Source: Nanobdellota archaeon (GTDB lineage: Archaea; Nanobdellota; Nanobdellia; Woesearchaeales; WJIZ01). From it: DNA of 53,925 nt. The stretch lies in NCBI GenBank assembly GCA_030647105.1, contig JAUSJW010000100.1, forward strand, positions 1 to 53,925, read 5' to 3'. This document shows, piece after piece, positions 996-15,059 of this stretch. The position numbers were made by a program, and so were the translations under genes. The notes under the pieces are model-generated. The model did not search any database. It saw only the letters and a program-made list of their open reading frames with translations, and was not told the origin of the DNA. The stretch's first letter is position 1. Every line of letters starts with the position of its first letter.

Positions 996-1928
996 TTAAG
1001 GTATACTCCTGAACTTCGTATTCACAAACACCCACTCAATCGAGAGGGTCGTGAAGCAGAGCATGATAAGCCAGAACGCGAGCTGAACAGGTAGCTTGCG
1101 CGTGGACGTGAACGCAATGTCGCGGTACGCCATCGCGAGCTGCTCGTTCGTCTGCGCCTTGTAGAACTTCCCACCGGTGTTCGCGGCGATGAGCTTCATC
1201 CCGTCCTCATCGAGCTTCGAGAGCGTGCCGACCCCAGTGAAACTGCCGCCTTCCGGAGTCGCGACGCCAATAGTATGCACCGTCACCTTGTACTCGTTCG
1301 CGTAGTTGATGGCCTGCGGCAAGAGTGTACCCACATTGCTCTGGCCGTCAGTCAAGAGAACAAGCACCCTTCCCTCGGGCCTCTGCAGAAGCAAGTTCGT
1401 TCCCGCGATAATGCCGTCGCCCACCGCTGTTCCCGACGAGAAGTCAATCTTGAGCTCCGCTATCTTCTGCCGCACGATCTCTCTGTCAGCGGTGAGCGTC
1501 TGCTTCACGAGAGGAGTGCCTGCGAAGGTCATGAGACCGACGGTCGCGTCCTCTGGAACGTTGTTGACAAGCTGCGTCGCCGCGGACTTCGCCGCCTCCA
1601 TGCGGTTGGGCTGGAAGTCGTTGCCGAGCATGCTCCCGGAGTTATCGATGGCGATGAGGAAGTTCGCGTTGCTGCCCTGCCCCTCATACCACAAGATAGG
1701 CCCAGACAAGGCAAAGATAAGGAAAAAGAGCGTCGAGAAGCGCAAAAAGAGCAGGGGCAGGTTAAGGGAGAGCTTCGAGCCGCCTGTCACTCGGGCCAGC
1801 GCCTCGAAGTTCGCGAACTTGAGCGCCTTCTTGTGGCTGTACTTGAGGCCGTAGAAGTGCGTTAGAATCAAGAAAGGCACGATGCACAACAACCAAAGAT
1901 AATTCGGCTGGAGGTAAGTGAGTTCCAT
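996..1928 (-). CDS. von Willebrand factor A domain membrane protein (BatA-like)
   Basis: Two N-terminal TM helices, then a MIDAS-type motif in FLIAIDNSGSMLGNDFQPNRMEAAK, LVLLTDGQSN, and a C-terminal TM (LAFWLIMLCFTTLSI). Sits 1 nt downstream of the DUF58 gene. Confidence 0.85.
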   Translation of the reverse strand: MELTYLQPNYLWLLCIVPFLILTHFYGLKYSHKKALKFANFEALARVTGGSKLSLNLPLLFLRFSTLFFLIFALSGPILWYEGQGSNANFLIAIDNSGSMLGNDFQPNRMEAAKSAATQLVNNVPEDATVGLMTFAGTPLVKQTLTADREIVRQKIAELKIDFSSGTAVGDGIIAGTNLLLQRPEGRVLVLLTDGQSNVGTLLPQAINYANEYKVTVHTIGVATPEGGSFTGVGTLSKLDEDGMKLIAANTGGKFYKAQTNEQLAMAYRDIAFTSTRKLPVQLAFWLIMLCFTTLSIEWVFVNTKFRSIP

Positions 1929-1929
1929 G

Positions 1930-2823
1930 CTACTTGTACCTCTGCCTGAACTTGAAGAAGGTGAAGATGTCGTGGATGAACGGCTTGTCCGTCTCGAGAG
2001 CGATCATGGAGGAGCGTGTTTTGTTCAGCTCTTCGCGAAGGCGCTCTATCTGGGCGTGCGCCTCGTGCTCGTAGATTTGCTGCGCCTCGTGAGGATTGGC
2101 AATCATCTTCCTGTCGGACATCACATCGCCGAAAAGCACGTTGCCGGGAATCTCAGGGAGATGGTTGTCTATCGGATCGCGCACCACAACCGCGTTCAAG
2201 TCGAACTTGAGGCCCGCTATCTTCATCGCATACTCCCATCCCGGCTTGAGGCCGATGAAATCGGAGACAATGAACACAACCGTCTGGGGCTTGAGGATGT
2301 TAAGCTTGAAGAGGTAGCTCAGCGCCGCGCCGAGGTCAAAGCTGCCGCCATAATAGGCAGGATTCTTGAGCGTCTTGAGGATGCGAAAAAACTGGTTGCG
2401 CCCGATGCCTGGCGGGATGAACGTGACCACTTTATCGGTAAAGAGCGCCAGCCCCACATTATCTCCAACTCCGTGCACAGCGTAGGAGAGCGTTGCCACC
2501 AACTCTGCGGCGAACTCGCATTTCAGTTTCTCGTGAGACGACAGCAACATCTTGTCCGAGACGTCCATGAGAAAGAACACCGTGAGGTTGCGCTCCTCCT
2601 GCATCACCTTCACCATGGGCTTGTGCGTGCGAAGCGACGCCTTCCAGTCAATCATCATGGCGTCGTCGTTGGGGCTGTACTCGCGAAAGCCGACGAACTC
2701 CAGGCCTTTGCCCTTGTACACGGCCATATAATTGCCCGCCAGCATATCCTGGGAGAATCCCTTGCGCAGGATGACCTCAAGCTTTGTGATGAGTTCCTGG
2801 ATATTGAGACGAATCTCTTTCAT
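1930..2823 (-). CDS. DUF58 family protein (MoxR/VWA-associated)
   Basis: Hallmark GKGLEFVGFREYSPNDDAMMIDWKASLRT. 4-nt overlap with the MoxR gene. Classical MoxR-DUF58-VWA order. Confidence 0.85.
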   Translation of the reverse strand: MKEIRLNIQELITKLEVILRKGFSQDMLAGNYMAVYKGKGLEFVGFREYSPNDDAMMIDWKASLRTHKPMVKVMQEERNLTVFFLMDVSDKMLLSSHEKLKCEFAAELVATLSYAVHGVGDNVGLALFTDKVVTFIPPGIGRNQFFRILKTLKNPAYYGGSFDLGAALSYLFKLNILKPQTVVFIVSDFIGLKPGWEYAMKIAGLKFDLNAVVVRDPIDNHLPEIPGNVLFGDVMSDRKMIANPHEAQQIYEHEAHAQIERLREELNKTRSSMIALETDKPFIHDIFTFFKFRQRYK

Positions 2824-4247: not shown

Positions 4248-4808
4248 ATGAAAAAGGAGCCTGTGTCCTACCGAAAGCATCTTTCCAGGGTCTCCGCGAC
4301 TAGAACCATCGAGGACCTTGAAATGGCGTTCAAGAATTTTATCCATGAGCAATATGACATCCACCATGGGCACACGTTTACTGAAATCCAGAACGTTGCC
4401 GGGAAAAAACGCATCCATCCCCACCTAAGAGAGCATATTCGGAGTGCCGCGCAGATGTTCGAAGAAATGGCCTACCGCAAAAAGAAGCTGAGCAAACACG
4501 AACTGCACCACATCCGAAAGCACGTCCACGCGCTCATCAAATCTTCCAGAGACGCCTACGGCCCGAGCGCTGAGCCGGAGAAAGGGTTATTCGCCCGCGT
4601 CAAGAGGACGCGTGATACGATTGTGCAGAAGACGAAAGAGAATGTCCAGCGCCTCAGGCACAAGGATATCCTCGTTGACGCGGAGTACCGCGAGATGCGC
4701 AAGTTCATGGACGCTTCTCACAAGCTCGGCATGGGCAGGAGCCAAATAGAGACGGAACTGCTTGTCATGGGCTTCCCCAAAGAGAAAGTAGAGAAGCTTC
4801 TCAAATAG
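4248..4808 (+). CDS. hypothetical soluble helical, His/Lys-rich protein
   Basis: 186-aa ORF with a TATA (4218-4225) 23 nt upstream of the ATG. No TM segment. Its central segment resembles the cytoplasmic loop of the giant protein (see findings). Confidence 0.6.
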   Translation: MKKEPVSYRKHLSRVSATRTIEDLEMAFKNFIHEQYDIHHGHTFTEIQNVAGKKRIHPHLREHIRSAAQMFEEMAYRKKKLSKHELHHIRKHVHALIKSSRDAYGPSAEPEKGLFARVKRTRDTIVQKTKENVQRLRHKDILVDAEYREMRKFMDASHKLGMGRSQIETELLVMGFPKEKVEKLLK

Positions 4809-4817
4809 AAACGTGGT

Positions 4818-5945
4818 TTATTTTCCTGTCACCCTATCAAGGGTGATAACACTAATTCCTTTCGCCCGCAAGGCATCAGGGAAAGTAACGCTCGAAAGCC
4901 CGGAGTAAAACTTCCAATTTCCTACAGGCCGCCTGTGCATATCTCCTACATTTGCCAAGTAGACTCCAGGAGACAATTCCTCGGCTCGCTCAGCCCAAGA
5001 ACGATTTCTGACATCGAGAGTGAGATGCGCGAGCGACTGTGTGCTTGTATCTGAGACTCCCGTTTCCTTAAGGACCTTTTTGAGCTCGCCAATCTGCCCA
5101 TCAAGCAACGGCACAAGGGTCTCCGACGCCTTATCCGCCATGGCAAGCAGGGACTTCCTCTCCGCGGAGGGGGCTCCTTGCGCGACTCGCTCCCGATAGG
5201 CCCCAAGGTCTCTGACAAATTCAGTACGATAATGCATGAGGTGATTCAATTCGCCAGCGAGAAGACCCCGCGCAAGAACGTCCTCGCGCTCAAGGCCCAA
5301 TTGGGCATACCCGCCAAGGTGCTTAAAACTTCCTTCGCCTTCCACTGCGTGCGCACGACAGACGCTGGCGATGCGGTTCATTCCCGCGTCCATCAGGTTG
5401 CTCCACGCTCGCGCGTAGACGGCATCCCGCTGCGCAATGGTTTCAGGATCTGCATGCTTACCTAGAATTCGCATATCGTTTCTGAGCACCTCCTGCTGGA
5501 AGTCAATATCGTTAGCATATCCGCCCCATTGGCAGTAAAATTCACGGGTGCGTGCAGTTCTTTGGGTGGCAGGGCTACCTTCGCGAAGAAGGCCCTCGGA
5601 GAGGATGCCCTCAAGCCCGCCGAGAATACGGTCCATTGTTTTCGCCAATGCGAGAGTGCTCTCACCATTGTTTCCCCCAGCCCCACCCTTTTGCGTTCGA
5701 TATTCATGGATTTCGGGGGAGACAACAATAGTCACAAAAGAAATCCCCGGAAAGGATTGGCCATAATCAAGGGGAACGCGCGCGGTTTCCAAAGCGCGTA
5801 TCAGTCCATCATAAGACGTTCGCGCAGACGGAGCAGTCTCTTTAAAGAGTGCCGCATTTCGCGGTTGTGATTCTTGAACAAGGGGAGTGGTGCAGCCCGC
5901 CACCAGAGCGCTCAAGAGCAAGAGAGAGACCTGATAGTTCTTCAT
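4818..5945 (-). CDS. hypothetical lipoprotein
   Basis: Signal peptide with lipobox-like LLLLSALVAGC. Own TATA (5967-5974) 22 nt upstream of the ATG. No family recognised. Confidence 0.7.
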   Translation of the reverse strand: MKNYQVSLLLLSALVAGCTTPLVQESQPRNAALFKETAPSARTSYDGLIRALETARVPLDYGQSFPGISFVTIVVSPEIHEYRTQKGGAGGNNGESTLALAKTMDRILGGLEGILSEGLLREGSPATQRTARTREFYCQWGGYANDIDFQQEVLRNDMRILGKHADPETIAQRDAVYARAWSNLMDAGMNRIASVCRAHAVEGEGSFKHLGGYAQLGLEREDVLARGLLAGELNHLMHYRTEFVRDLGAYRERVAQGAPSAERKSLLAMADKASETLVPLLDGQIGELKKVLKETGVSDTSTQSLAHLTLDVRNRSWAERAEELSPGVYLANVGDMHRRPVGNWKFYSGLSSVTFPDALRAKGISVITLDRVTGK

Positions 5946-6001
5946 CTTCCTTCCGGTTGCTAGAGATTATATAAATTTTACTATTTTATAGTAATTAATA
6001 T

Positions 6002-9000
6002 TTAGACCTTCCTTCTTCTAGAAAGCCAGACAATGATGAGGAAGGCGATGAAGAGCAGCGTCAGGAGCAGGCCTGAGAGCACCTGGTAAAGCGAGCTTTC
6101 CCGCTGCTTGATAGGCTCGAACTGGTCGATTTCCTTGGGCACGGAAAGGAGGTATCTGCAGCCTTCGATGATGAAGCTCAGCCGCTCTCTCGCCCGGTCG
6201 TACTGTCCCGCCTGGATATCGGACTGCGCCTCAGTCATGAGTTCGCTGAGTTCAAGGCATTCTGGATTCATTTGGAGCAGGTCACGCACGAAGTTGATAT
6301 GGTCGTCAATCTGCGTCCGGTTCTCCGCGACGCGTTCGGTACCAGTGAGGGAGATAATAGCCTTGTCGGTGAACACGGGGTCGGTGGAGGTGGCGCTGAC
6401 GATGACGTCGAACTCCCGCACAGTGCCGCTCCACTTGATGAAGAGCCGTGTCTCCTCAGTCTGCTTGGGCACGAGCGTGTCGAAGGCGCTTCTTTCGAAC
6501 CAGGCGATTACCGTGGGGTCGGAAGTATTCGCGACGAGTTTAATGCCGCTCAGTACGGATTCCGCGTTGTTGGTAAGTATGATAGGCGCGACAACCGTGT
6601 CTTCGCTAAATCCGGTAACGTGCCGAGGCGCGACAATTTCGAGATAGCGCGGCTCTGTCACGGTGCGCAGCCGGGTCTTGAAGGTGGTGCGGGTGCGGGT
6701 AACCGTAACGGTATCCGTATCGCTGGTAGTCTCGACATCAGTCACCTCGATAGTGACCGGCGCGCTGAGAACGCTGTCCGTACCGTCCGTAGCGTTGAAA
6801 ACCGCCGTCTCAGTGCCTGCGGAGGTGCTGGTGGTGGTGAGCGAGACAATATGTGTGGAATTGCTGATGGACAGCGCGACGTTCGTGACGCCCGAGACGC
6901 TAAAGAGCAGAGTGTCATCAGTATCAAGATCGGAGAAGTAATCATCGAGGTCAATCCAGTTTGGAAGACTGTCTCCCTCATCGAGCTCAATATTGGGAAT
7001 GCGGTGGCGGATGACAACGGAACTTACGTTCGGAGTCAGATTAGTGTTCGTCGTGTTAAGAATCACCCGATACTGGAGATAGGTCGTATTCTCGGAGACG
7101 ACGCGCTCTCCGGAGCTATTGAGATAACTCCGGTTGAGGAGCAGGATACTCCAGTTGTTCCAAGTGGTGGAATCTTCAGAAGTTCGAGTCTGGAGAACAG
7201 CGGCGGTGCCCGTAGGAGTGATAGCGTCCCAGCTGAGGTTCACAAGGCCAATGGGATTGTAGGCAATAGTAGCTGTGCCGCCCATATCGAGCGCAGGTGA
7301 GAGATACTCTCCACGGTTGTTGAAAACGCTTCCGTTCGCGCCGAGGAGAATGCCCGTATCAGAGGTGTTCGTGCCGTTCGCCGTGCCGGAGGAGAAATCC
7401 GTAGCGTCGTGGTCCACAAAACCAAAGCGCGGCGCGCGGTTGCTGTCCGCGACCGTAATATTCCATGTGAACGTAGCGTTCGCGTTCCTTGGGTCGGAGA
7501 TAATAACCGTGACATTGTGCAGCCCCGCGTCCAGGAAGTCCGGCACGTACGTAAGCGCGCTCGTCGTGTTGCTTGTCGAGTTCAACACGCCGTCGATGTA
7601 CCAGCGGTACGTGACGTTATCACCGTTGGAATCGTTCACGGAGACGTTGAAGGGTACAGTCGCGTTCTCCGAGACATTGATGGAAGTGCGGTTCAGGGTG
7701 AAAGAACTCAGGTTGGCCCACGCGAAGACAGTAGTATTGGAAAGCGGAGTCCCGTAGGGAGTGAGCTGGGTGAGGTTGGGCGGGCTGTTGACAGAAAGAA
7801 TGGTCAAATTAAACAGAACGGAAGCGCTCTTGCCCCCGGAGTCATTGACCGAGAGGTTCACGACATGCAGGCCGACAAAGGAGCTGTTCACCGTGACGTT
7901 CATCATGCCCGTGCTGCGGTTGATTGCGAAAGGAGCGCTGAGATTGAAGCCGTAGGTGAGGTTCGGCTCTCCGTCCTCCTCGTCAGTCGCGTTCACATCA
8001 TAGAGCAGGGTTTGCAGCGCTTCCGCTTCGAGGTTGGGCACACTCACCGAGGGGACATCGTTGAAGAACTGCACCTGGAAATTGACCGTCTTGTTGGTCG
8101 TCACGTTCGCGAGGTCAGTGACATTGAACTGAACCGTGTGATTGCCTACTTGTGTAGAGTTAGGCGTGAAGAGAATCCGCCCCGTGGAGGCGTTGATAGT
8201 GAAGAGCGTCGAGTTCGTGCGGTAGGTGAGGGTGTCGTTGCTCGGCACAAGGAAATCCTCATCCGTGGCGTTGACCGTGTAATTGAAGAGCGAATCCTCC
8301 GTTGCGTTGAGATCTGAGAGGGTGAGCGTCGGAGCGTCATTGGTGTTGTTGACTGTGAAGTTGATGGTCTGGCTCGTATTGAGCTCATAATCCGAAGCGG
8401 TGAAGTTGATAGAATAGTTGCCGACGAACGTGTAATTGAGCGTGAAGTTCGCGACCGCCCCGCGTATAGACATATTCTTGATGGTAAACCAGCTCGCGTT
8501 CGCCGTGAAGTTGACGGCGTCGCTCTCCGCGTCCGTCGCGTTGATGGTGCAGGTAAAGAGGATATCCTCCCACGCGGTGCGCTCGTTTTCGCAGAGGTAG
8601 ACGAAGGTGGGTGCGGTGTTAATGTTGAGCACTTCAACTCTCAGCGCCGCATAAACTGCGAGTCCGTTGCTGTCGTTCACCGTGATATTAACTGTATAGT
8701 TTCCAACTTCGGTTATCGTAGGAGTGAAGGAAATGAAGCCTGCGCTCGTGATGTTGAAGAGCGTCGTGTTGTCTGAGAAATTGAGGGTATCGGGGGTCGG
8801 GAGGTTGAAGTCGTCATCCGTGACATTGCGGCTCAGATTGTAGGTGAAAGGTGTGCCGCGCGTCGCGGTCAGGTTTGGCACGAGGGTGAAGGTGGGCGCT
8901 TCAGGAGTGTTGTTGACCGTCACGTTGTAGACATAGGTTGTGGCGTCGCCCCAGAAGTCAGTCGCCGTGACAAGGACGCGATGGTCTCCCACCCGGTCGT

Positions 9001-12000
9001 CGTTAGGGAAGAACGACGCGTTCCCAGCCGCGGAAAGATTGAACCAGCTCGTGTTAGAAGTGAAGTTGACGGCGTCATTCTCAGCATCAGAGGCGTTAAA
9101 GAGACAGCTGAACTGCGCGCCTTCCTGAATTACGGTGAAATTGGAGCAGATGAGGCCGAACACAGGCGCGGAGTTGGTTCTGACCGAAAGATTGAAGGTC
9201 GTGAACCCGAGCGCGAGCGCTATATCTGTCGCGTTTACGAGCACTGTGTAGTTTCCTGCCTGGGCAAGAACCGGCGTGAAATTGAGCCTGAGCGCGGTTG
9301 CGTTGAGCTTGGTGAGAGTAAAGAAACTCTGGTTCACCGCGAACGTGAGGTTTTCTGACGTGTTGAGGAAGCTATCGTAGGGCTGAGAGAAGTCGTCATC
9401 CGCGGCGATGACCGTGAACGTGGAGTTCCGTCCGATAATGGCAGTCTGGCTGGCGAGAGTCGTGAAGACAGGCGCGTCGTTAGTGTTGTTAACAGTGATG
9501 TTGATAGTGGTCAAGGCATGAAGCAGACCGTCGCTGAGATTGAGGCGAACGCTGTAGTTGCCAACCTGTGCGTTGGAGGGCGTGAAGTTAGCGAGGAACG
9601 ACCTGCTCGTTGTCCTGCTGATGTTAAACCAGGACAGGTTAGAAGAGAGCGTCAGGGTATCCAGTTCTGAGTCTGTCCCGTTGATAATGCAGAAATGGCG
9701 AATGTCTTCGATGGCCGTTGAGTTGGAGCAAGTGGCGTCGAAGCTCGGCGCGTTGTTGATGTCCGTCACCGTGAAATTCGCGAGCTTATAGCCCATTCCA
9801 TTGTCTGTATCGCGGACAGTGAGGTTCAGCGTGTAATTTCCAGCGTCATTGTTTAGGGGCGTGAAATTGAACGCGCCGGTAGTAGAATTGATTGCGAGCG
9901 TCAGCGCCGCGCAGTCGCTGAGATAGTTTTGCTGGCAACTCACGATGCTGAAGTTGTACACTAAACTGGCTGCCGCGGTTTCCTCGTCAGAAGCGGCGAG
10001 CTGGTAGCCGTAGAGCGTTTCTGTGGTCGCGGACGAGATACTCGTTCCTGCGGGAGTTGAGAACACAGGCAAGTCATTGACCGCCGTGATAGTGAGGTCG
10101 ATATTCGCCGAGTCGGAATCGCCACTAGTATCGCTGACCGTAACCAAAGGCCTAAACGGCCCGGAGTTGGAAAAGTTGGAGGTCGTGACGCGAACAGTGA
10201 AGTTGCCATTCGTGAAGTCGAAGCGCCAGCAGTTGCTGCAGTCGGGATGGGAAGTAAAATTCTGGATAGAGCCAGCGGTGTAGTCAAAGGCCAGCCCGTC
10301 ATTGATATTGACATCCGAGGAGTAGTGGCTAATGTTGTACTTACAATCGAGGTCCTCAGTGCAGACCAGTGGCTCGAGGTTATTGCCCGTCTTGTTGAAA
10401 GCGGGGGCGCTGTTGTTAATGAGGAGGTCATCCGTAATGTTGAGCGTCGGGGAGGTTGCGTTGGCGCAGAGCACATTGAAGTAAGACCTTCCCTTGTAAG
10501 GAATTGTGCGGTTGTAGCTATAGAGGCCGCCGGCCTCGCTAAAGGTCATGTTCGCCGCGCCTTCATAAGCTCCTGTGAAATTGAACTGGATAGTGCAGAT
10601 TCCACTGATTGCCGTGCCATTAGTGTAATTAGCGTAGAAGGTCAGGTTGGTCACCGAGTATTTCGCGAGCCCGTCGACATCCTGGCTGTCGTAAACTGAG
10701 AGGTTGGCGCCCGAGCTGTTTACGCTTGCGAAGTTGTGCGCGTAGGCCTCAGCCGAGCCGAAGGTGAACCGCTGATGATGGCTTCCTGCGGTGAGGACCT
10801 GTGCAGTCCACGTCGCTGTCGTGTTGCAGGAATAGTTCGAAACTGTCGCGAGGTTTCCTGACTGGAGGAAGGGAATCTCGGCATCGCCACAGGTCAGCGT
10901 CTCAGGCATCAGGTCTCCGGAAGAGCCGTAGGTGGTTCCGTTGCTCGCCGCGATGGAGAGGTCAGCCGCCCCGAGAGTGGTGAACCGCACCTCCCATTCC
11001 CCGCCAACCGTCGGGTAGCTCTGCACGTTCAAGATGGAAAGTTCCACCTCATAGGTCTCGTTGCTCAGGTGAGGTACCTGCCATTCTATAGAGTCTATTA
11101 GTCCATTGTTGTTGCGGTCAAACGCGTCGAACGTTGCTTCTTCTCGCGCGCCTCCGACAACATGGTAGAGGTGAATTGCGTCAACAGGCACCTCAGGGAG
11201 CTCCGTGAAGGCGGTGATGTTCAGATAATGGAGTTCTGAAGAGATAGTAACCCGCTTCGTGCTTTCAGAAAGCTGCTCTTCGGTAGAACGAGGGGATTCC
11301 GTGTAGTACTCGACTTCTACTTCAGGCGAAGCTGTCACCACCTGAAGTTCCGCCGGAGCCCGCGCCGCTCCCGCGACAACTCTGCTCGGACCCTCTTTGA
11401 GCGCGTAATCCGTTTTCTCCAATTCGCGAACACCGGAAGCGGTGAGCTCGCGCACCGTGAAGTTAAGCGGAACATGGTCGAGCGTGACGGTCGCCCCGCG
11501 AACGCTGGCGATCTTTGTCCAGCGTACAGGCTGGCCAACGCGGGCAGCCCCCTGCACGTTCACGTCTTTCGGCTGCTTCACCTGAATAGAAATCAGATTA
11601 GAAAGCGACGATTGTTCCGTGTCGCTGGCCGTGAAGAAGGTGAAAGCGGTTCCGGAGAAGCCTGGCTGCGCGGAAACCAGGGCCACTCCGTCAACAATCT
11701 CAACATCAATGCCATCCACTGAGTACCAAGAATAAGACAAGGTATCGCCATCCGCGTCCGTGGCGAAATCACCCAGGCGCAGCTGCGTAACCGCCCCATA
11801 ATCGAGGCTGAGGTTAGGGAGATCGCGGAAAGCTGGAGCCCTATTGAAAACAAGCGAACTGCCATAGGAAACGCTCTCAAGGACAAACGTCCCGTTCTGC
11901 ACCTCAATGGAGAGCGTTCCGGAAACAGGAGTAGAGAGCCTGCAGGTCTCGTCGCAGACATCGACGAAGCGCCGTTCGGAAGGCTCGAACACGACGCTGA

Positions 12001-14869
12001 TATTTTCTTCCTCGGACTCTACAAGCTCAAAGTAGCTGTCTTCTGCGGAGAAGCTGTAATTCGCGTACGCGATTTTCGCGGTGACGATATTCTCCGATCC
12101 TGCGCCGAGCTTGCCTTCCGAAAGGAAAAAGGTGTCATCGTACGTATCGCGCTCCGCCGCCAAGTCATACAGCGCGCAGCATCCCGCTCCGCCGTAGCAC
12201 ACGCGCTCCTGTGTTTCCAACGCGCGCACCGTGTAGATCGCGCAGAGATTCTTCGGATCCGCTTCCCATCCCAACTGGCTGCCTTCCACAGTGAGGTCCA
12301 CCACGCCGCCGCTATCGACAACCCCATCGTCATCAGGGTCCCAGGCGGTTCCGGCATGGTAATCCAAATCAAGGTCAATAGCTCTTTCTCCGGGCGATAA
12401 GGATTTGCGAGTATCCGTCTTCACGCGCGATAAAGGCCGGGAAGCGCTGTCAAAGACCACCTGAGTTCCAGCCAGAACACGCGCATGGGCTCCGGAGCTG
12501 AGCGTTCCAGTAAGCGTGAGCGAAGATAGGCTCCGCTGACCAGGGAAGAGTTCATAGGACGCGGGGAAAGCGAACGTCTGCCCGACAGGCACCGTGAAGG
12601 TCGCGTTTTCCCGCACGAGGAATCCAGTCAATGGCGCGTCCTGGAGGAAGAAGAAGGCACCAGCGAAGAGGAGCAAGAGAGCCATCGCGACCGCCACGCC
12701 TTGCCGGGGCCTGAACACGCGGACAGGTTTGAGGCGCGCGAGTTGTGTTGCCTCGTGCAGGAGGGCTTCTACTCTTCCGCGTGACACCGCTCCCCCGCTA
12801 TACGCCAATTCCGTAAGCTGAGAGAAGAAAGGCTCGACAGACTTCTGGAGGAAGTCGTGAAGTTTCTTTTCGCGGGCCGCCTTGCCGAGCTCTTCGTAGG
12901 TCGCCTCGTATTCAATGCTAAGGTGGTGTTTGAGCCAGTCCTTCATAATGGTGTCAAGCTGTTTGAGCGCGAGCGTGGGCTCTTCCCTCGCTATCTGGCT
13001 CGAAAGCAAAGAGAGCCGAGCCGTGATATCGGGCGCCTGTCGCGTCAGGACATTCAAAGCGGGATGCGCGGACGAGGGGAACAGGCGCGAGAGCAGGAGC
13101 CGGAGTTTGCTCGGCTTGCCCTGCTTGGCTGCCAGCCTGCGATGGATAAAGGCGCGAAGAGGCTGTAAGGCCGCTGAAATCCGCTGCCTGAACGGTTTCT
13201 TGTGATGCAGCCAGCCCAAAACGCCCAGGAACAAGAGGGCGGAAAGCGACGAGATAATAAGGCCCCATTCCACTCCGCCGTACAGTTCAGGTGGCGCGAG
13301 CTTGGGCACTTCTGTCGGCGCGACAATCTCCTCTTGTCTGCATGATCTGCACGGCCCGCCGCAGTCCACGCCTTGTTCGCAGAGGGTAGTGCCGTTCTCC
13401 GCGCGTGGACAATTCATAACGGCGTCGAAGCAGGTCGCGCAGGAGTTCTCGCATGAGCCGCCGCAGTCCACGCCTTGCTCATCATAGTCCTGTCTCCCGT
13501 CAAAGCAGTAATCTCCGGCGTTGCACTGGCGAGTAAGATTGGGCGTGTATCTCCCCGTCTTGCATTCGTTCAAATCTGAGCAGTTTCTCGCGGCGTATCC
13601 CGAGCCGCACAATCCCCAGCCAGAGCAGAACCATTTCTCCTCGCAGCGTTTCGAGCTTCCTCCGCCGCCTCCGCCGCCTCCGCCGCCCACGACAGCTGCG
13701 GGAGTGGACGCTTCAGGGAGGTTGTTCACATTCAGGTCGAAGATAATCGCATCAGAAGCGGCAATCGTATCGTTCGCTTCTATGCTCACACGCTGCCTTC
13801 CAAACGCGTTGGCCTCGACCGCGAAGCTGATAAAGTGGGAAGAGGGGCATACTCCTTGCCGCGGATCGCGGTTATTCTCAATAGAGACAGAGACAAAGGG
13901 ATTCGCGGAGATAGATCTAAGCTCAAATTTGAGGCAGTCACCATTCGAGTCGTTGAAGAAGTCGTCGAGGTCGTACGCGTTGATAATGTTATGGTCTTCA
14001 TCCCAAGTGTAGTTGAGCGTTCCAGCAGACGTAACATAGAACGGCTTGCTGTTGGTGGGAAGAATAGTGATATTGATAAGTTGTGAATCGGTATTGTTGG
14101 CGCACGTGTTGTTGTCCTGCGCGGTAATGTTAAGGAGGTGGTAACCGACATGTTTTAGGTCGGGAGTAATTGTGAGCAGGCCTGAGCTCGCGTTGAGAGT
14201 GACATACGAACCGCCGACTGGGGAGAGCGACGCGTAAGCGTCCGTCTGATTGAAGGCGATGCTGAAGTTTATCGCGTCTCCCTCAGGGTCGGACGCGTTG
14301 ATGTCGATGACGAGCGTCGCGTTGCGGTCCACGCTGAAGCTCGCCGACACGTTCAGTACCGGAGGCTCGTTCGCCGCGCAATCGGAAGTGATGTTAAGCG
14401 GCAGGACAGAGGAGGTAACCTGATTACTGCATCCCGATCCGTCGCTTATGTTGATAGCGATATGGTAGTATCCTGCCGAGCTAACAGAAGGCGTGAACGT
14501 GACGCCGCCTGAAGACGAGATGTTGAACAAGGTAGTGTTGTCGATGTAAGTGAAACTCGTACTGGGATTGGCGTCGGACGCCGAGACTGTGCAGTTGTAG
14601 AGCACTGTCGCGTTCGCTGTGGACGAGCAGTTGGACACGTTGAGTGATGGCGCGGTGTTGACACAGAAGGTCACGCTTCCAGAGCCGGAGTTCATGCCCG
14701 TCACAGCGATAACCGCGGGCTCTGGAGATTTGAGGAAGACAAGCGCGCTCCAAACAGAGACCGCGAGCAAACAGAGCACCATCAAAGCGAGCGTCGTGTT
14801 CGAAAGCGCCGCGGCTCGCGCGCGCGTCATCATGCCGGCAAGGCCCCAATTATTTCTTCTGTTGCTCAT
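6002..14869 (-). CDS. giant (2,955 aa) multi-TM surface protein with cadherin/Ig-like repeat array, Cys-rich module and dense N-glycosylation sequons
   Basis: Uninterrupted ORF. N-terminal hydrophobic anchor, two internal hydrophobic helices, and a C-terminal TM plus RRRKV. About ten repeats of ~90-115 aa joined by N-x-x-(A/P)-P-x-F linkers. Every other-frame ORF inside it is Arg/Gly/Pro-rich junk. Confidence 0.85.
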   Translation of the reverse strand: MSNRRNNWGLAGMMTRARAAALSNTTLALMVLCLLAVSVWSALVFLKSPEPAVIAVTGMNSGSGSVTFCVNTAPSLNVSNCSSTANATVLYNCTVSASDANPSTSFTYIDNTTLFNISSSGGVTFTPSVSSAGYYHIAINISDGSGCSNQVTSSVLPLNITSDCAANEPPVLNVSASFSVDRNATLVIDINASDPEGDAINFSIAFNQTDAYASLSPVGGSYVTLNASSGLLTITPDLKHVGYHLLNITAQDNNTCANNTDSQLINITILPTNSKPFYVTSAGTLNYTWDEDHNIINAYDLDDFFNDSNGDCLKFELRSISANPFVSVSIENNRDPRQGVCPSSHFISFAVEANAFGRQRVSIEANDTIAASDAIIFDLNVNNLPEASTPAAVVGGGGGGGGGGSSKRCEEKWFCSGWGLCGSGYAARNCSDLNECKTGRYTPNLTRQCNAGDYCFDGRQDYDEQGVDCGGSCENSCATCFDAVMNCPRAENGTTLCEQGVDCGGPCRSCRQEEIVAPTEVPKLAPPELYGGVEWGLIISSLSALLFLGVLGWLHHKKPFRQRISAALQPLRAFIHRRLAAKQGKPSKLRLLLSRLFPSSAHPALNVLTRQAPDITARLSLLSSQIAREEPTLALKQLDTIMKDWLKHHLSIEYEATYEELGKAAREKKLHDFLQKSVEPFFSQLTELAYSGGAVSRGRVEALLHEATQLARLKPVRVFRPRQGVAVAMALLLLFAGAFFFLQDAPLTGFLVRENATFTVPVGQTFAFPASYELFPGQRSLSSLTLTGTLSSGAHARVLAGTQVVFDSASRPLSRVKTDTRKSLSPGERAIDLDLDYHAGTAWDPDDDGVVDSGGVVDLTVEGSQLGWEADPKNLCAIYTVRALETQERVCYGGAGCCALYDLAAERDTYDDTFFLSEGKLGAGSENIVTAKIAYANYSFSAEDSYFELVESEEENISVVFEPSERRFVDVCDETCRLSTPVSGTLSIEVQNGTFVLESVSYGSSLVFNRAPAFRDLPNLSLDYGAVTQLRLGDFATDADGDTLSYSWYSVDGIDVEIVDGVALVSAQPGFSGTAFTFFTASDTEQSSLSNLISIQVKQPKDVNVQGAARVGQPVRWTKIASVRGATVTLDHVPLNFTVRELTASGVRELEKTDYALKEGPSRVVAGAARAPAELQVVTASPEVEVEYYTESPRSTEEQLSESTKRVTISSELHYLNITAFTELPEVPVDAIHLYHVVGGAREEATFDAFDRNNNGLIDSIEWQVPHLSNETYEVELSILNVQSYPTVGGEWEVRFTTLGAADLSIAASNGTTYGSSGDLMPETLTCGDAEIPFLQSGNLATVSNYSCNTTATWTAQVLTAGSHHQRFTFGSAEAYAHNFASVNSSGANLSVYDSQDVDGLAKYSVTNLTFYANYTNGTAISGICTIQFNFTGAYEGAANMTFSEAGGLYSYNRTIPYKGRSYFNVLCANATSPTLNITDDLLINNSAPAFNKTGNNLEPLVCTEDLDCKYNISHYSSDVNINDGLAFDYTAGSIQNFTSHPDCSNCWRFDFTNGNFTVRVTTSNFSNSGPFRPLVTVSDTSGDSDSANIDLTITAVNDLPVFSTPAGTSISSATTETLYGYQLAASDEETAAASLVYNFSIVSCQQNYLSDCAALTLAINSTTGAFNFTPLNNDAGNYTLNLTVRDTDNGMGYKLANFTVTDINNAPSFDATCSNSTAIEDIRHFCIINGTDSELDTLTLSSNLSWFNISRTTSRSFLANFTPSNAQVGNYSVRLNLSDGLLHALTTINITVNNTNDAPVFTTLASQTAIIGRNSTFTVIAADDDFSQPYDSFLNTSENLTFAVNQSFFTLTKLNATALRLNFTPVLAQAGNYTVLVNATDIALALGFTTFNLSVRTNSAPVFGLICSNFTVIQEGAQFSCLFNASDAENDAVNFTSNTSWFNLSAAGNASFFPNDDRVGDHRVLVTATDFWGDATTYVYNVTVNNTPEAPTFTLVPNLTATRGTPFTYNLSRNVTDDDFNLPTPDTLNFSDNTTLFNITSAGFISFTPTITEVGNYTVNITVNDSNGLAVYAALRVEVLNINTAPTFVYLCENERTAWEDILFTCTINATDAESDAVNFTANASWFTIKNMSIRGAVANFTLNYTFVGNYSINFTASDYELNTSQTINFTVNNTNDAPTLTLSDLNATEDSLFNYTVNATDEDFLVPSNDTLTYRTNSTLFTINASTGRILFTPNSTQVGNHTVQFNVTDLANVTTNKTVNFQVQFFNDVPSVSVPNLEAEALQTLLYDVNATDEEDGEPNLTYGFNLSAPFAINRSTGMMNVTVNSSFVGLHVVNLSVNDSGGKSASVLFNLTILSVNSPPNLTQLTPYGTPLSNTTVFAWANLSSFTLNRTSINVSENATVPFNVSVNDSNGDNVTYRWYIDGVLNSTSNTTSALTYVPDFLDAGLHNVTVIISDPRNANATFTWNITVADSNRAPRFGFVDHDATDFSSGTANGTNTSDTGILLGANGSVFNNRGEYLSPALDMGGTATIAYNPIGLVNLSWDAITPTGTAAVLQTRTSEDSTTWNNWSILLLNRSYLNSSGERVVSENTTYLQYRVILNTTNTNLTPNVSSVVIRHRIPNIELDEGDSLPNWIDLDDYFSDLDTDDTLLFSVSGVTNVALSISNSTHIVSLTTTSTSAGTETAVFNATDGTDSVLSAPVTIEVTDVETTSDTDTVTVTRTRTTFKTRLRTVTEPRYLEIVAPRHVTGFSEDTVVAPIILTNNAESVLSGIKLVANTSDPTVIAWFERSAFDTLVPKQTEETRLFIKWSGTVREFDVIVSATSTDPVFTDKAIISLTGTERVAENRTQIDDHINFVRDLLQMNPECLELSELMTEAQSDIQAGQYDRARERLSFIIEGCRYLLSVPKEIDQFEPIKQRESSLYQVLSGLLLTLLFIAFLIIVWLSRRRKV
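7424..10417 (-). repeat. in-frame tandem array of ~10 cadherin-like domains (aa 1485-2482 of the giant ORF)
   Basis: Recurring linkers: NNSAPAF, VNDLPVF, INNAPSF, TNDAPVF, TNSAPVF, PEAPTF, NTAPTF, TNDAPTL, FNDVPSV, NSPPNL, SNRAPRF. Recurring core: F(N/T)I...G.(I/L).FTP...VGNYTV. Confidence 0.75.
13658..13687 (-). repeat. (GGCGGCGGA)x3 + GGA microsatellite encoding Gly10 linker
   Basis: Plus strand reads tcc tcc gcc gcc tcc gcc gcc tcc gcc gcc. This encodes aa 395-404 of the giant ORF. Confidence 0.9.
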
Positions 14870-15059
14870 GCTTCAGGTACTCACGTTTTCTCGCGACGGC
14901 CTCCTCGAGGCCGGCGTCTTTCAGATAGCGTATGAGAAGGTGGCGGATGCCCTCACGGGCGATTTCCGCGTCCGTCGAGAACATGCCGATTTCAATCAGT
15001 TTCCGCATTTGCTCTTTCAGCTCTTTCCCTACGCGGATATGAAGAAGTTCAGATTCCAT
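14850..15059 (-). CDS. ribbon-helix-helix (CopG/Arc-like) DNA-binding protein
   Basis: 69 aa. N-terminal beta-strand LLHIRVGKELKEQMRKLIE followed by helix DAEIAREGIRHLLIRYL. The stop overlaps the giant ORF start by 20 nt. Confidence 0.7.
   Translation of the reverse strand: MESELLHIRVGKELKEQMRKLIEIGMFSTDAEIAREGIRHLLIRYLKDAGLEEAVARKREYLKHEQQKK

What the first reader, a model, noticed from the sequence alone, without database searches (positions are those of the whole stretch)
6002..14869. Giant 2,955-aa ORF with four hydrophobic spans: two ectodomains joined through a cytoplasmic loop
Seen in the sequence: one uninterrupted minus-strand ORF, which I indexed by hand. The N-terminal half runs as follows. 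aa 26-46 is a hydrophobic anchor. aa ~60-390 holds Ig/cadherin-like modules. aa 395-404 is a Gly10 linker. aa 409-510 is a Cys-rich module with two EQGVDCGG(S/P)C motifs. aa ~533-555 is a TM followed by HHKKPFRQR. The middle is a ~170-aa charged helical segment, then a TM at aa ~725-742 followed by LTGFLV. The C-terminal part is a ~2,190-aa ectodomain. It contains Asp-rich calcium-loop-like motifs (DPDDDGVVD, DRNNNGLIDSIEW). It also contains ten repeats joined by N-x-x-(A/P)-P-x-F linkers that recall the cadherin DxNDNxPxF interdomain motif. It ends in a C-terminal TM plus RRRKV. N-x-S/T sequons are very dense (9 in aa 1701-1800 by hand count). Inference: this is a heavily N-glycosylated adhesin whose two extracellular parts are coupled by an intracellular loop. 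That topology is unusual for archaeal surface proteins. It makes the protein a prime candidate for cell-cell (host) contact if this is a DPANN-like organism.
Basis: partly seen in the sequence, partly recalled or inferred. Interest (0 to 1): 0.7.

Follow-up and report, generated by a model that had tools for sequence, protein, structure and literature searches.

The report
Fused surface glycoprotein with MoxR–VWA cassette
The 2,955-aa gene is real: it fuses two neighbouring membrane-anchored, sugar-coated Ig-repeat surface proteins of a tiny DPANN archaeon, and its inner loop carries an undescribed helical domain that almost always sits beside a MoxR ATPase–DUF58–VWA gene cassette, pointing to a conserved and untested cell-surface machine.

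Summary
It is one uninterrupted 2,955-aa minus-strand ORF with four hydrophobic spans. It has 153 N-x-S/T sequons against about 47 expected, and none in the loop. It has Big_9/tandem-95 Ig-like repeats. The four-span topology is conserved in 3 full-length orthologs (39–67% identity) and in at least 10 further relatives, so it is not an assembly artefact.

First, in most relatives the two halves are separate adjacent genes. Half A is anchor, Ig repeats, CGGxC module, TM and cytoplasmic tail. Half B is N-terminal TM, Ig repeats, β-sandwich, disulfide helix bundle and TM. The window's protein is their fusion, which explains the odd topology.

Second, the loop holds a ~95-aa helical-bundle module ("YEFTYEEL…EYSG") with no Pfam, NCBIfam or PDB match. 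It is found in 429 cluster representatives. All 10 related loci examined individually (L001–L004, L006–L010; L005 duplicates L004) carry the module next to MoxR or the full MoxR–DUF58–BatA/VWA cassette. So do 20 of 44 loci fished by the motif alone, often with an RHH gene and a stand-alone module protein.

Best reading: this is the surface component of a Bat-like, DPANN-specific membrane system. A role as adhesin versus envelope scaffold is unresolved, and the mechanism is inferred.

The parts
6002..14869 (-). Giant ORF, 2,955 aa: fusion of 'half A' (aa 1 to about 722) and 'half B' (aa about 723-2955)
14735..14791 (-). TM1 (aa 27-45), an N-in signal-anchor or possibly cleaved signal peptide, preceded by an Arg-rich N-terminus
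   Evidence: KD 2.62; conserved in orthologs; cleavage not testable here
13265..14734 (-). Ectodomain 1 (aa 46-535): Ig-like repeats (about aa 60-390), Gly10 linker (aa 395-404, nt 13658-13687), Cys-rich module with two (E)xG(V/I)DCGGxC motifs (aa 409-510, nt 13340-13645)
   Evidence: 24 sequons; BLAST of aa 66-317 to Big_9 repeats of other proteins, E to 6e-13; Cadherin_4 weak; 17 Cys between aa 409 and 510; motifs conserved in orthologs; CGGxC precedes the TM in 47 of 50 module proteins
13208..13264 (-). TM2 (aa 536-554), followed by HHKKPFRQR
   Evidence: AF2 helix aa 532-556
12701..13207 (-). Cytoplasmic loop (aa 555-723): 0 sequons, 0 Cys, 1 Asn, 30 K+R
12734..13027 (-). Conserved ~95-aa five-helix module (aa 615-712), family consensus ...R.FFK..F.I.YEFTYEEL...FF.K.SE.EYSG..ISK.EL..LI.E.K.IV; uncurated domain
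   Evidence: 429 representatives at E<=1e-3; AF2 pLDDT 84-97 over the module; no Pfam/NCBIfam/PDB match
12644..12700 (-). TM3 (aa 724-742), an internal N-in anchor equivalent to the N-terminal TM of separate half-B genes; followed by the PLTGFLV motif
6083..12643 (-). Ectodomain 2 (aa 743-2929), 128 sequons
11081..11119 (-). EF-hand-like loop DRNNNGLIDSIEW (aa 1251-1263); D-x-[ND]-x-N-G-L-[IT]-D-x-I-E-W conserved in 4 orthologs
   Evidence: Pfam EF-hand_5 E 0.0079, below cutoff
7421..10417 (-). Ten ~95-aa Big_9 / tandem-95 Ig-like repeats (aa 1485-2483) joined by N..(A/L/P/V)P.(F/L/V) linkers
6143..6655 (-). C-terminal β-sandwich (aa about 2739-2842) plus three-helix bundle with invariant C2871/C2904 (aa about 2849-2909): the most widely conserved part, the hallmark of half B
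   Evidence: AF2 pLDDT about 90 for the sandwich; invariant Cys; 26 half-B ORFs match at E 1e-11 to 5e-35; only generic Ig/MG/Fn3 fold hits
6026..6082 (-). TM4 (aa 2930-2948), followed by the cytoplasmic tail LSRRRKV
14850..15059 (-). 69-aa ribbon-helix-helix-like ORF overlapping the giant's start by 20 nt; conserved upstream of the big gene in L001, L002, L007, L009
   Evidence: PDB CopG/Arc/MetJ and ParD E 0.005-0.02; RHH_8 in 2 of 5, E 2e-4
4248..4808 (+). 186-aa stand-alone soluble copy of the loop module (module at aa 12-100)
   Evidence: module HMM E 2.9e-14; homologs in the same slot in L001/L002 and next to BatA in L006/L008
2820..4184 (-). MoxR-type AAA+ ATPase (AAA_3), Walker A GVPGVAKT, Walker B FILADEINR, no TM
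1930..2823 (-). DUF58 protein (VWA-like), no TM, sequons at the expected level, so cytoplasmic
996..1928 (-). BatA-type membrane protein: 3 TM plus a VWA domain with MIDAS DNSGS; VWA inferred to be extracellular
   Evidence: Borrelia BB0173 topology experiment (PMC5700661)

Best explanation
The ORF encodes a real, heavily N-glycosylated, Ig-repeat surface protein that crosses the membrane four times. It is a single-chain fusion of two proteins that most Woesearchaeota encode as adjacent genes. Half A consists of an anchor, Ig repeats, a Cys-rich CGGxC stalk, a TM and a cytoplasmic helical-bundle tail. Half B consists of an N-terminal TM, Big_9 repeats, a β-sandwich, a disulfide-locked helix bundle and a C-terminal TM. 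Joining A's cytoplasmic tail to B's N-in anchor gives two ectodomains joined by a cytoplasmic loop. The protein is the extracellular component of a conserved gene cluster that also holds an RHH protein, a soluble copy of the loop module, a MoxR AAA+ ATPase, a DUF58 protein and a BatA-type membrane protein with a MIDAS-containing VWA domain facing outward. This is a DPANN elaboration of the bacterial Bat/MoxR-DUF58-VWA cluster.

Proposed mechanism (inferred, not shown): the loop or tail module is the cytoplasmic handle through which MoxR/DUF58, possibly bridged by the soluble module protein, assembles, matures or remodels the surface protein. The BatA VWA/MIDAS domain engages the ectodomains outside the cell. 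The output is a Ca2+-stiffened, multiply anchored glycoprotein array used for attachment to a host or substrate and/or as an envelope scaffold.

Shown: the ORF, the four spans, their conservation, the fusion origin, the module family and the gene linkage. Inferred: topology, glycosylation, physical coupling and function.
For: Integrity and conservation: three full-length orthologs from independent assemblies (67/43/39% identity, 99-100% coverage) keep all four spans. Further 4-TM relatives are P0008, P0009, P0074, P0109 and the short-loop group P0018/23/25/27/34/37.

Topology: positive-inside charges, 152 sequons in 2,669 ecto residues against 0 in the loop, and cytoplasmic proteins of the window at 0-0.5 per 100 aa.

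Fusion origin: in L007, P0032 ends in the loop module and is followed by a separate 1,482-aa gene aligning to aa 1660-2954 (E 3e-77). Half A (Cys-module/TM2 match) and half B (C-terminal-domain match) are both present as separate ORFs in 18 of the 44 motif-fished loci, mostly directly adjacent (e.g. L022: A 7673-10585, B 10579-14775).

Module: 429 representatives at E<=1e-3, a confident 5-helix AF2 model, and CGGxC within 60 aa before the TM in 47 of 50 proteins.

Linkage: MoxR, or the full MoxR-DUF58-BatA cassette, lies adjacent in all 10 related loci examined individually (L001-L004, L006-L010; L005 duplicates L004), although their outer flanks differ. The short-loop loci supply the module in trans as a 142-144-aa gene next to BatA. 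Of 44 loci fished only by YEFTYEE[LF], 20 have all three cassette genes and 23 have at least one; of the 9 with full 10-kb flanks, 8 have the cassette. Both same-strand and divergent layouts occur.

Cassette competence: Walker A/B and MIDAS motifs are intact in all orthologs.

BatA VWA outside: K/R-rich loop at aa 29-56, and sequons depleted (4 observed against 19.3 expected over 8 orthologs) while MoxR and DUF58 are at expectation. This agrees with the experimental topology of Borrelia BB0173 (PMC5700661).

Precedent: the Bifidobacterium PFNA cluster pairs an FN3 surface protein with MoxR and DUF58 (PMC8430577).
Against: No physical interaction was tested, so gene linkage is the only evidence for coupling. 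Seven module proteins of about 650-730 aa (L013, L014, L018, L020, L021, L026, L030) show no cassette gene within the held flank; L020, with full 10-kb flanks, is the clear case, and the others have shorter or one-sided flanks. The module is therefore not strictly cassette-bound. In the window, MoxR is separated from the giant gene by two extra ORFs, one on the opposite strand. The function of bacterial Bat clusters is itself unknown ('Bat function remains elusive', PMC3557215), so the analogy carries little mechanistic content. TM calls rest on hydropathy, charge and sequon logic, not on a dedicated predictor or an experiment. Glycosylation is inferred from sequons only. Whether TM1 is cleaved is unknown.
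Confidence: 0.6

Rival explanations
1. Envelope scaffold. The A/B proteins (fused here) are the main S-layer-like or pseudo-periplasm-defining envelope glycoproteins of these archaea, analogous to SlaA/SlaB, rather than host-specific adhesins. MoxR-DUF58-BatA would then be their assembly chaperone system.
For: [quoted passage not shown] Conservation among the four orthologs is even along the whole length (10-47% invariant columns per 100-aa window, with no hypervariable tip), unlike typical fast-evolving host-recognition proteins. The family is present across many Woesearchaeota/Pacearchaeota species. Both ends of each ectodomain are membrane-anchored, which suits a canopy better than a reaching fibre.
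Against: There are no expression data. There is no homology to known S-layer proteins (PDB and Pfam searches negative). The genomes carry several other giant surface proteins that could equally be the S-layer. EF-hand-like and DxDxDG loops and the linkage to a VWA/MIDAS protein are as typical of adhesion systems.
Confidence: 0.3
2. Stand-alone host-contact adhesin. The loop merely tethers two adhesive ectodomains, and the neighbouring MoxR-DUF58-BatA genes are functionally unrelated.
For: Big_9/tandem-95 repeat proteins are commonly adhesins. DPANN depend on host contact. There are conserved putative Ca2+ loops.
Against: The loop is not a passive tether. It carries a conserved folded domain that recurs in hundreds of proteins and as a separate gene. 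Cassette adjacency holds in all 10 individually examined related loci with unrelated outer flanks, in both gene orientations, and in 20 of 44 motif-fished loci. For scale, one ~3-kb cassette per genome of order 1 Mb (assumed, not measured here) would fall within 10 kb of a random gene only a few percent of the time.
Confidence: 0.15
3. Artefact: two genes joined by an assembly or sequencing error (a missing stop or frameshift in the aa 560-725 region).
For: Most relatives have the two halves as separate genes whose boundary lies exactly where the loop ends. The source is a MAG.
Against: The frame is open throughout. The fused form recurs in at least 11 long-loop proteins, plus six short-loop 4-TM relatives, from different samples and pipelines (NCBI, ENA, JGI, Logan) at 23-67% identity, all with a loop followed by a TM and a long ectodomain. 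The loop module is in frame and scores E about 1e-22 to the family HMM.
Confidence: 0.02
4. Conflict or defence system. This would be a MoxR-vWA NTP-dependent system of the kind described by Kaur et al. 2020 (PMC7159879), with the giant protein as an extracellular sensor of invaders.
For: The Pfam bpMoxR model also hits the ATPase (E 6e-9). An RHH gene sits at the head of the cluster.
Against: There are no PADLOC hits for any cluster protein. AAA_3 is by far the better model (E 1.8e-56). No effector, β-propeller, caspase or nuclease domain is in the conserved core. The cluster matches the DUF58-BatA (Bat-type) MoxR context, not the ternary vWA-β-propeller one.
Confidence: 0.04

Closest known systems
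Bacterial Bat (Bacteroides aerotolerance)-type clusters: MoxR - DUF58 - BatA/BatB (VWA) - BatC - BatD - BatE (B. fragilis, Leptospira, Borrelia bb0170-bb0176, Francisella)
   Same: The same three-gene core in the same order: AAA_3 MoxR, DUF58, and a BatA_N + VWA membrane protein with MIDAS. The VWA faces the extracytoplasmic side (experimental for BB0173, PMC5700661; inferred here). A large exported, membrane-anchored β-rich partner (BatD) belongs to the bacterial cluster.
   Different: No BatB/TPR, BatC, BatD or BatE/SH3 homologs are present. The exported partner here is a 1.6-3.2-kaa N-glycosylated Big_9 repeat protein or protein pair with a CGGxC stalk and a novel cytoplasmic helical module. 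A soluble copy of that module and an RHH gene are added. The host is a DPANN archaeon. The function of the bacterial clusters is itself unresolved (PMC3557215).
Bifidobacterium PFNA cluster (pkb2 - fn3 - MoxR AAA-ATPase - duf58 - tgm)
   Same: An Ig-superfold (FN3) membrane-anchored surface glycoprotein is encoded immediately upstream of MoxR and DUF58, with a membrane protein as the third partner. It is proposed to mediate adhesion and communication, with MoxR as a possible folding chaperone (PMC8430577).
   Different: Its third partner is a transglutaminase rather than BatA/VWA, and a Ser/Thr kinase is present. The FN3 protein is small and single-pass. There is no loop module and no fusion of two ectodomains.
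Tandem-95 / Big_9 repeat adhesin-like giant proteins (NCBIfam NF012211; Pfam PF17963)
   Same: The ten to twelve ~95-aa repeats with N-x-(A/P)-P linkers pass the curated cutoffs.
   Different: Typical members are secreted or singly anchored bacterial proteins. This one has four TM spans, an internal cytoplasmic domain, extreme sequon density and a dedicated C-terminal sandwich, helix bundle and TM anchor.
DPANN/Sulfolobales S-layer and anchor glycoproteins (SlaA/SlaB-like; Nanobdella MJ1_0299/0707-type)
   Same: Multiple Ig-like folds, many N-glycosylation sequons, a C-terminal TM helix and an N-terminal hydrophobic segment (10.1101/2023.10.27.564410).
   Different: No sequence or specific fold homology was detected. 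This protein has internal TM hairpins and a cytoplasmic domain, and it is linked to a MoxR-VWA cassette.
Integrin-type adhesion (analogy only)
   Same: An extracellular MIDAS VWA domain, Ca2+-loop-bearing Ig-like ectodomains, TM helices and a cytoplasmic helical-bundle handle that could receive inside-out input.
   Different: There is no homology. The VWA is on a separate protein. Foldseek similarity of the module to FAT/talin-like four-helix bundles is not significant (best E 0.4).

Membership tests
Big_9 / tandem-95 repeat proteins | Multiple ~90-95-aa Ig-like repeats scoring above the curated cutoffs | tested here: met
   PF17963 82.6 bits (cutoff 23.6), 10 stretches; NF012211 131.8 bits (cutoff 90), 12 stretches
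Classical cadherins | Cadherin domain (PF00028) with the DxNDNxPxF Ca2+-binding linker | tested here: not met
   No PF00028 hit at E<=1; Cadherin_4 16.7 bits, below its cutoff of 25.1. Linkers are N..(A/P)P.F without the acidic DxNDN set in most copies
EF-hand Ca2+-binding loop | 12-residue loop D-x-[DN]-x-[DN]-G-x-[ILV]-[DN]-x-x-E, flanked by helices | tested here: inconclusive
   DRNNNGLIDSIE fits the loop pattern and is conserved in 4 orthologs, but Pfam EF-hand_5 scores 16.1 bits, below its cutoff of 25.9. The flanking structure was not modelled
Bat-type MoxR-DUF58-VWA cluster | AAA_3 MoxR ATPase with intact Walker A/B | tested here: met
   PF07726 E 1.8e-56; GVPGVAKT and FILADEINR
Bat-type MoxR-DUF58-VWA cluster | DUF58 protein directly downstream of MoxR | tested here: met
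   PF01882 E 4.9e-41; the genes overlap by 4 nt
Bat-type MoxR-DUF58-VWA cluster | BatA: BatA_N TM region plus a VWA domain with the MIDAS motif DxSxS | tested here: met
   PF07584 E 2.9e-7, VWA_2 E 2.3e-21, DNSGS at aa 95, conserved in 8 orthologs
Bat-type MoxR-DUF58-VWA cluster | BatB/BatC (TPR), BatD, BatE (SH3) partners | tested here: not met
   No such Pfam hits in the giant protein or in the neighbours scanned
DUF4129 / DUF4381 (helical domains found next to MoxR-DUF58 in bacteria) | Significant match of the loop module to PF13559 or PF14316 | tested here: not met
   DUF4129 in 1 of 7 at E 0.23; DUF4381 in 2 of 68 at E 0.002, below cutoff, location not determined; the module consensus gives no hit; none in 19 further proteins. 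No profile-profile test was possible
Ribbon-helix-helix regulators (upstream 69-aa ORF) | N-terminal β-strand plus two helices, with a match to RHH families | tested here: inconclusive
   PDB CopG/Arc/MetJ antidote and ParD at E 0.005-0.02; Pfam RHH_8 in 2 of 5 orthologs at E 2e-4, and none for the window copy itself
Archaeal S-layer / anchor glycoproteins | Abundant, lattice-forming, N-glycosylated Ig-fold protein with a C-terminal TM | not testable with these tools
   Sequons, Ig folds and a C-terminal TM are present. Abundance and lattice formation need expression data and imaging
Anti-phage defence systems (PADLOC) | Match of any cluster protein to a defence-system model | tested here: not met
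   0 hits for 9 proteins

The most novel reading that the evidence does not exclude
The cluster encodes a previously unrecognised, ATP-driven, bidirectional adhesion machine of DPANN archaea. A cytoplasmic MoxR AAA+/DUF58 motor would grip the novel helical-bundle module in the loop or tail of the surface protein, with the soluble module protein as adaptor. It would control, from the inside, the conformation or deployment of multiply anchored Ig-repeat ectodomains, which cooperate outside with a MIDAS VWA domain. This would be an integrin-like inside-out attachment system that evolved independently and underlies episymbiont-host contact in Woesearchaeota and Pacearchaeota.
Probability: 0.15. 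Interest if true: 0.85.

Novelty: new variant of a known kind. Interest (0 to 1): 0.58.

Why it matters
How DPANN episymbionts build their surface and hold on to hosts is largely unknown, and most of their large surface proteins are annotated only as 'Ig-like' or 'hypothetical'. This analysis turns one such ORF into a defined, conserved multi-gene system. Its parts are a two-subunit (or fused) glycoprotein, an uncurated cytoplasmic domain family with about 430 cluster representatives, and a MoxR-DUF58-VWA cassette whose bacterial counterparts (the Bat clusters) have resisted functional assignment for 25 years. The natural fusion is Rosetta-stone evidence that halves A and B act together. The tight module-cassette linkage nominates a concrete substrate or partner for a MoxR ATPase. 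Both points are directly testable by co-folding, pull-downs and metatranscriptomics. If confirmed, they would inform both DPANN cell biology and the long-standing question of what Bat-type MoxR-VWA systems do.

Tried and rejected
1. DUF4129/DUF4381 identity of the loop module, a lead recalled from memory. Only sub-threshold, sporadic Pfam hits were found, so I did not adopt it.

2. Sequence searches of the loop profile, aa 743-1492, aa 2477-2929 and the Cys-rich module against PDB gave nothing significant.

3. Foldseek of the loop model against PDB gave only generic four-helix bundles (FAT, PsbQ, HEPN, FliS), best E 0.4. I rejected this as evidence for any homology, including the tempting focal-adhesion analogy.

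4. Foldseek of the C-terminal model gave generic Ig, macroglobulin and Fn3 domains only.

5. The word-indexed homolog search with the module profile returned a single hit. The exhaustive HMM search was needed instead.

6. The look-up of encoding contigs for the window protein itself found nothing on record.

7. The search for related loci with the divergent alignment A2 failed for lack of a conserved stretch. It was rerun with the YEFTYEEL subgroup.

8. I first hypothesised that the long loop is required for cassette linkage. This was rejected because the short-loop relatives (24-38-aa hairpin) also have the cassette. It was replaced by 'module in cis or in trans' after the stand-alone module genes were found.

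9. I first assumed the BatA VWA domain is cytoplasmic. This was reversed after the Borrelia topology paper, the positive-inside analysis and the sequon depletion.

10. The defence-system reading: no PADLOC hits.

11. The MopE-like copper-binding identity of the Cys module, suggested by a hit's name: no PF11617 match in the giant protein.


Full report
**1. The observation**

The window carries a single uninterrupted minus-strand ORF at 6002..14869 encoding 2,955 aa.
- Hydropathy peaks lie only at aa 27-45, 536-554, 724-742 and 2930-2948.
- Gly10 is at 395, and the two EQGVDCGG motifs are at 464 and 498.
- HHKKPFRQR follows TM2, LTGFLV follows TM3, and RRRKV ends the protein.
- DPDDDGVVD is at 844 and DRNNNGLIDSIEW is at 1251.

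There are 153 N-x-S/T sequons against about 47 expected from composition, and none between aa 501 and 700. A loosened linker pattern, N.{0,3}[APLV]P.[FLV], occurs 14 times against 2.1 (maximum 7) in shuffles. The ten copies from aa 1485 to 2477 are spaced 88-116 aa apart. The repeats are Pfam Big_9 (10 stretches, E 3.9e-23) and NCBIfam 'tandem-95' (12 stretches, E 6.6e-39), both above their curated cutoffs.

**2. Is it one gene, and is the topology real?**

A whole-protein search found three full-length orthologs from independent assemblies: P0004 (67%), P0005 (43%, Ca. Woesearchaeota) and P0006 (39%), each covering 99-100% of the query. All three keep four hydrophobic spans at equivalent positions and a 176-231-aa loop with 0-1 sequons between ectodomains carrying 24-29 and 112-137 sequons.

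Shorter relatives (P0008, P0009, later P0074, P0109 and others) have the same four-span plan. Another group (P0018, P0023, P0025, P0027, P0034, P0037; Pacearchaeota/Nanoarchaeia) has the two internal helices joined by only 24-38 aa.

Three lines of evidence support N-in / ecto 1 / loop-in / ecto 2 / C-in.
- Charge distribution follows the positive-inside rule at all eight helix ends.
- The loop has a single Asn, no Cys and 30 K+R.
- At the ectodomain sequon rate, about 9.5 sequons would be expected in the loop (P about 7e-5). Presumed cytoplasmic proteins of the same window carry 0-0.5 sequons per 100 aa, against 5.2 for the giant protein.

No dedicated TM predictor was available, so the topology is a strong inference and not a demonstration. 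An assembly artefact is very unlikely.

**3. Where the odd topology comes from**

In locus L007 the relative P0032 (2,008 aa) consists of an anchor, an ectodomain, a Cys module, a TM and a 186-aa tail homologous to the loop, and it stops there. It is followed by a 148-aa anchored Ig protein and a separate 1,482-aa gene. That gene has an N-terminal TM, Big_9 repeats and a C-terminal domain plus TM, and it aligns to aa 1660-2954 of the giant protein (E 3e-77).

Among 44 loci later retrieved from GTDB species genomes, 26 have an ORF matching the giant's C-terminal domain (aa 2735-2955) at E 1e-11 to 5e-35. Most of these are about 1,220-1,400 aa with a TM at each end ('half B'). Thirty loci have an ORF matching the Cys module plus TM2 (most about 630-1,010 aa, with some truncated or longer ORFs; 'half A'). 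Both halves are present in 18 loci, mostly directly adjacent and sometimes overlapping by a few bases (L022: A 7673-10585, B 10579-14775).

The window's protein is therefore the fusion of A and B. A's cytoplasmic tail has been joined to B's N-in anchor. The fused form is the minority: 11 of the 155 module-bearing proteins held.

**4. The loop is a domain, not a tether**

Loops and tails share a core of about 95 aa (aa 615-712 here). A profile of seven such cores, searched exhaustively against 1.84 billion representatives, found 429 proteins at E<=1e-3 and 45 at E<=1e-10.

The family consensus is ...R.FFK..F.I.YEFTYEEL..EL.K.KI...LK..I..FF.K.SE.EYSG..ISK.EL..LI.E.K.IV. AlphaFold2 on a 30-sequence alignment models TM2, loop and TM3 at mean pLDDT 81.9. 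The module forms five helices (aa 615-625, 631-650, 658-667, 671-690, 697-712) at pLDDT 84-97.

Neither the consensus nor the individual members match any Pfam or NCBIfam family, any PDB sequence or any PDB fold (best Foldseek E 0.4, generic four-helix bundles). A remembered resemblance to DUF4129/DUF4381 was tested and not supported.

Architectures of the 155 proteins held:
- 37 carry the module as a tail after an ectodomain and a TM.
- 11 carry it between TMs with a long ectodomain after it (fused A+B).
- 2 carry it between TMs with only a short or truncated region after it.
- 35 are small proteins with an N-terminal TM followed by the module.
- 70 have no upstream TM (soluble proteins or fragments).

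In 47 of the 50 proteins with an ectodomain and TM before the module, a CGGxC motif lies within 60 aa upstream of that TM. The Cys stalk, the TM and the module therefore form a three-part unit. All carriers that have a source name are Ca. Woesearchaeota.

**5. The conserved neighbourhood**

Downstream of the giant gene lie a MoxR AAA+ ATPase (AAA_3, E 1.8e-56), a DUF58 protein (E 4.9e-41) and a BatA-type protein (BatA_N + VWA).

The same trio directly follows, or faces, the big protein in nine related loci: L001, L002, L003, L004, L006, L007, L008, L009 (P0055; the contig ends inside MoxR) and L010. In L010 a soluble 808-aa module protein sits head-to-head with the cassette, next to a 1,204-aa Big_9 gene. 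In several of these loci the outer flanks are unrelated, so this is not mere synteny.

Scanning all ORFs with the module HMM showed that the window's 186-aa plus-strand ORF (4248..4808) is a stand-alone copy of the module (E 2.9e-14). L001 and L002 have the same gene in the same slot. The two short-loop loci, whose big protein lacks the module, encode it as a separate 142-144-aa gene right after BatA. Every locus thus has the module, in cis or in trans.

A 60-94-aa ORF overlapping the big gene's start (window 14850..15059) is conserved in five loci and is RHH-like.

In the independent test, 44 loci were fished from GTDB species genomes solely by the peptide pattern YEFTYEE[LF]. Of these, 20 contain MoxR, DUF58 and BatA together and 23 contain at least one of them. 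Of the nine loci with full 10-kb flanks on both sides, eight have the cassette. Seven module proteins of about 650-730 aa show no cassette gene within the held flank, L020 being the clear case, so the module also serves paralogous one-pass surface proteins.

The Walker A/B motifs of MoxR and the MIDAS motif of BatA are intact in all orthologs.

**6. Which side is the cassette on?**

MoxR and DUF58 have no hydrophobic spans, and their sequon counts sit at expectation (13 vs 11.1; 11 vs 11.8 over eight orthologs). This fits cytoplasmic proteins.

BatA has three spans. Its 29-56 loop is K/R-rich (6 positive against 1 negative residue), which places the VWA domain outside the cell. This matches the experimentally determined topology of Borrelia BB0173 (PMC5700661). 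BatA sequons are strongly depleted (4 observed against 19.3 expected), as if glycosylation of an exposed MIDAS domain were selected against. That last point is an inference.

The system therefore has parts on both faces of the membrane. Outside are the two ectodomains and the VWA domain. Inside are the module (in the loop and as a soluble protein), MoxR and DUF58.

**7. Other parts of the protein**

- The EF-hand-like loop is conserved as D-x-[ND]-x-N-G-L-[IT]-D-x-I-E-W in all four orthologs, and WD[PD][DN][DN]DG is also conserved. Pfam support is below cutoff, so Ca2+ binding is plausible but unproven.
- The C-terminal 316 aa were modelled at pLDDT 75.8. They form a last Ig sandwich, a Thr-rich linker, a well-predicted β-sandwich, a three-helix bundle with two invariant cysteines (C2871, C2904) and the TM helix. 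Fold matches are generic Ig, macroglobulin and Fn3 domains.
- Residues 743-1480 have no detectable relatives in PDB.

**8. Interpretation**

Shown:
- a real, conserved, four-span, sequon-saturated Ig-repeat protein that is a fusion of two adjacent genes;
- a new cytoplasmic domain family;
- strong, orientation-independent gene linkage of that domain and these surface proteins to MoxR-DUF58-BatA.

Inferred:
- the module is the cytoplasmic handle by which the MoxR/DUF58 pair assembles, matures or remodels the surface protein;
- the outward-facing VWA/MIDAS domain contacts the ectodomains.

MoxR ATPases generally act with VWA partners on a specific target complex (established knowledge; see PMC8430577, PMC3557215).

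The closest known systems are the bacterial Bat clusters and the Bifidobacterium PFNA cluster, in which an FN3 surface protein is followed by MoxR and DUF58. In both, the mechanism is still unknown. Even conservation along the length, double anchoring of each ectodomain, and the DPANN literature on glycosylated Ig/TM envelope proteins (10.1101/2023.10.27.564410) keep the envelope reading fully alive.

Literature searches found no description of this linkage in DPANN. Makarova et al. 2016 noted vWA-MoxR pairs near archaeal type IV pilus loci (PMC4858521), which is a different context.

**9. Verdict**

The ORF by itself is a new member of a known kind, a Big_9 repeat surface protein. Three things together make it a new variant of the Bat-type MoxR-VWA systems and a concrete, testable lead into DPANN surface biology: the fusion origin, the uncurated loop domain, and the conserved cluster of RHH, A/B protein, module, MoxR, DUF58 and BatA.

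Noticed in passing
window 4248-4808 (+): This 186-aa ORF, which looked like a spurious opposite-strand ORF, is a stand-alone copy of the loop module (E 2.9e-14). Its C-terminus (LGMGRSQIETELLVMGFPKEKVEKLLK) resembles the repeated G(W/F)PxExV..LL units that fill the 312-aa cytoplasmic tail of the 4,040-aa Woesearchaeota protein P0015.
   Followed up: partly
window 996-1928 (-) and orthologs in L001-L008: The BatA VWA proteins are strongly depleted in N-x-S/T sequons (4 observed against 19.3 expected over 8 orthologs), while MoxR and DUF58 are at expectation. This suggests an extracellular VWA domain under selection against glycosylation.
   Followed up: partly
giant protein aa 53-57 and 746-752 (about nt 14699-14713 and 12614-12634); aa ~113-119 of the 15204-16373 (-) ORF (about nt 16017-16037); orthologs; the L007 148-aa gene: A short (I/L/V)-T-G motif recurs 5-12 residues after N-in hydrophobic anchors: AVTGM after TM1, PLTGFLV after TM3, DLTGNVV in the 389-aa neighbour, and ITGLF / ITGRF / QITGQ in relatives. 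It may be a processing or sorting signal of these archaea.
   Followed up: no
window 4818-5945 (-): A 375-aa ORF with a signal peptide and a lipobox-like LVAGC lies between the giant gene and the module gene. It has no homolog in any related locus and no Pfam hit, so it looks like a lineage-specific insertion into the cluster.
   Followed up: partly
window 15204-16373 (-) and 16370-16846 (-): An HTH protein (Sigma70_r4_2-like C-terminus) overlaps a 389-aa two-TM protein with a basic C-tail. The pair is conserved upstream of the giant gene only in the close orthologs L001 and L002.
   Followed up: partly
window 16968-17414 (+) and 17411-17932 (+): Two small overlapping ORFs (148 and 173 aa) have an N-terminal hydrophobic anchor and 2-2.9 sequons per 100 aa, with no family match. 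They may be small secreted or pilin-like surface proteins.
   Followed up: no
window 150-992 (-): A 280-aa ORF after BatA has an N-terminal TM, a sequon cluster at aa 100-125, a C-terminal TM and a very basic tail (KKRIQKKRFKRSRK). It has no homolog in the other loci.
   Followed up: no
window 2820-4184 (-), aa 1-130: The MoxR of this window, and of L001, L002 and L006, carries a 60-130-aa low-complexity K/A/P/E-rich N-terminal extension. It is absent from the MoxR of L003, L004, L007 and L008.
   Followed up: no
loci L011, L012, L015-L018, L022, L026, L028, L034, L038, L040, L043, L047, L050: Third-party 'binchicken' MAGs carrying the typical Woesearchaeota module/half-A/half-B/cassette layout are titled 'uncultured Methanosarcinales archaeon', and L038 is titled 'Alphaproteobacteria bacterium'. 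These labels look wrong or the contigs are mis-binned. I did not verify this.
   Followed up: no
L003 1-5797; L004 1-2638 and 19274-21055: Relatives' loci are flanked by other giant ORFs (3,241, 4,330 and 7,741 aa; NosD/β-helix and Laminin_G_3 types). Surface-protein genes therefore cluster in these small genomes.
   Followed up: no
window 41839-41955 (+): A 5S rRNA gene (Rfam RF00001, 71.4 bits). No tRNA genes are found in the whole 54-kb window.
   Followed up: no
window 6001-10000: The plus-strand GC skew is 0.13-0.21 across the repeat region, meaning a C excess on the coding strand. This probably reflects Thr/Asn/Ser-rich codon usage in the sequon-dense repeats.
   Followed up: no
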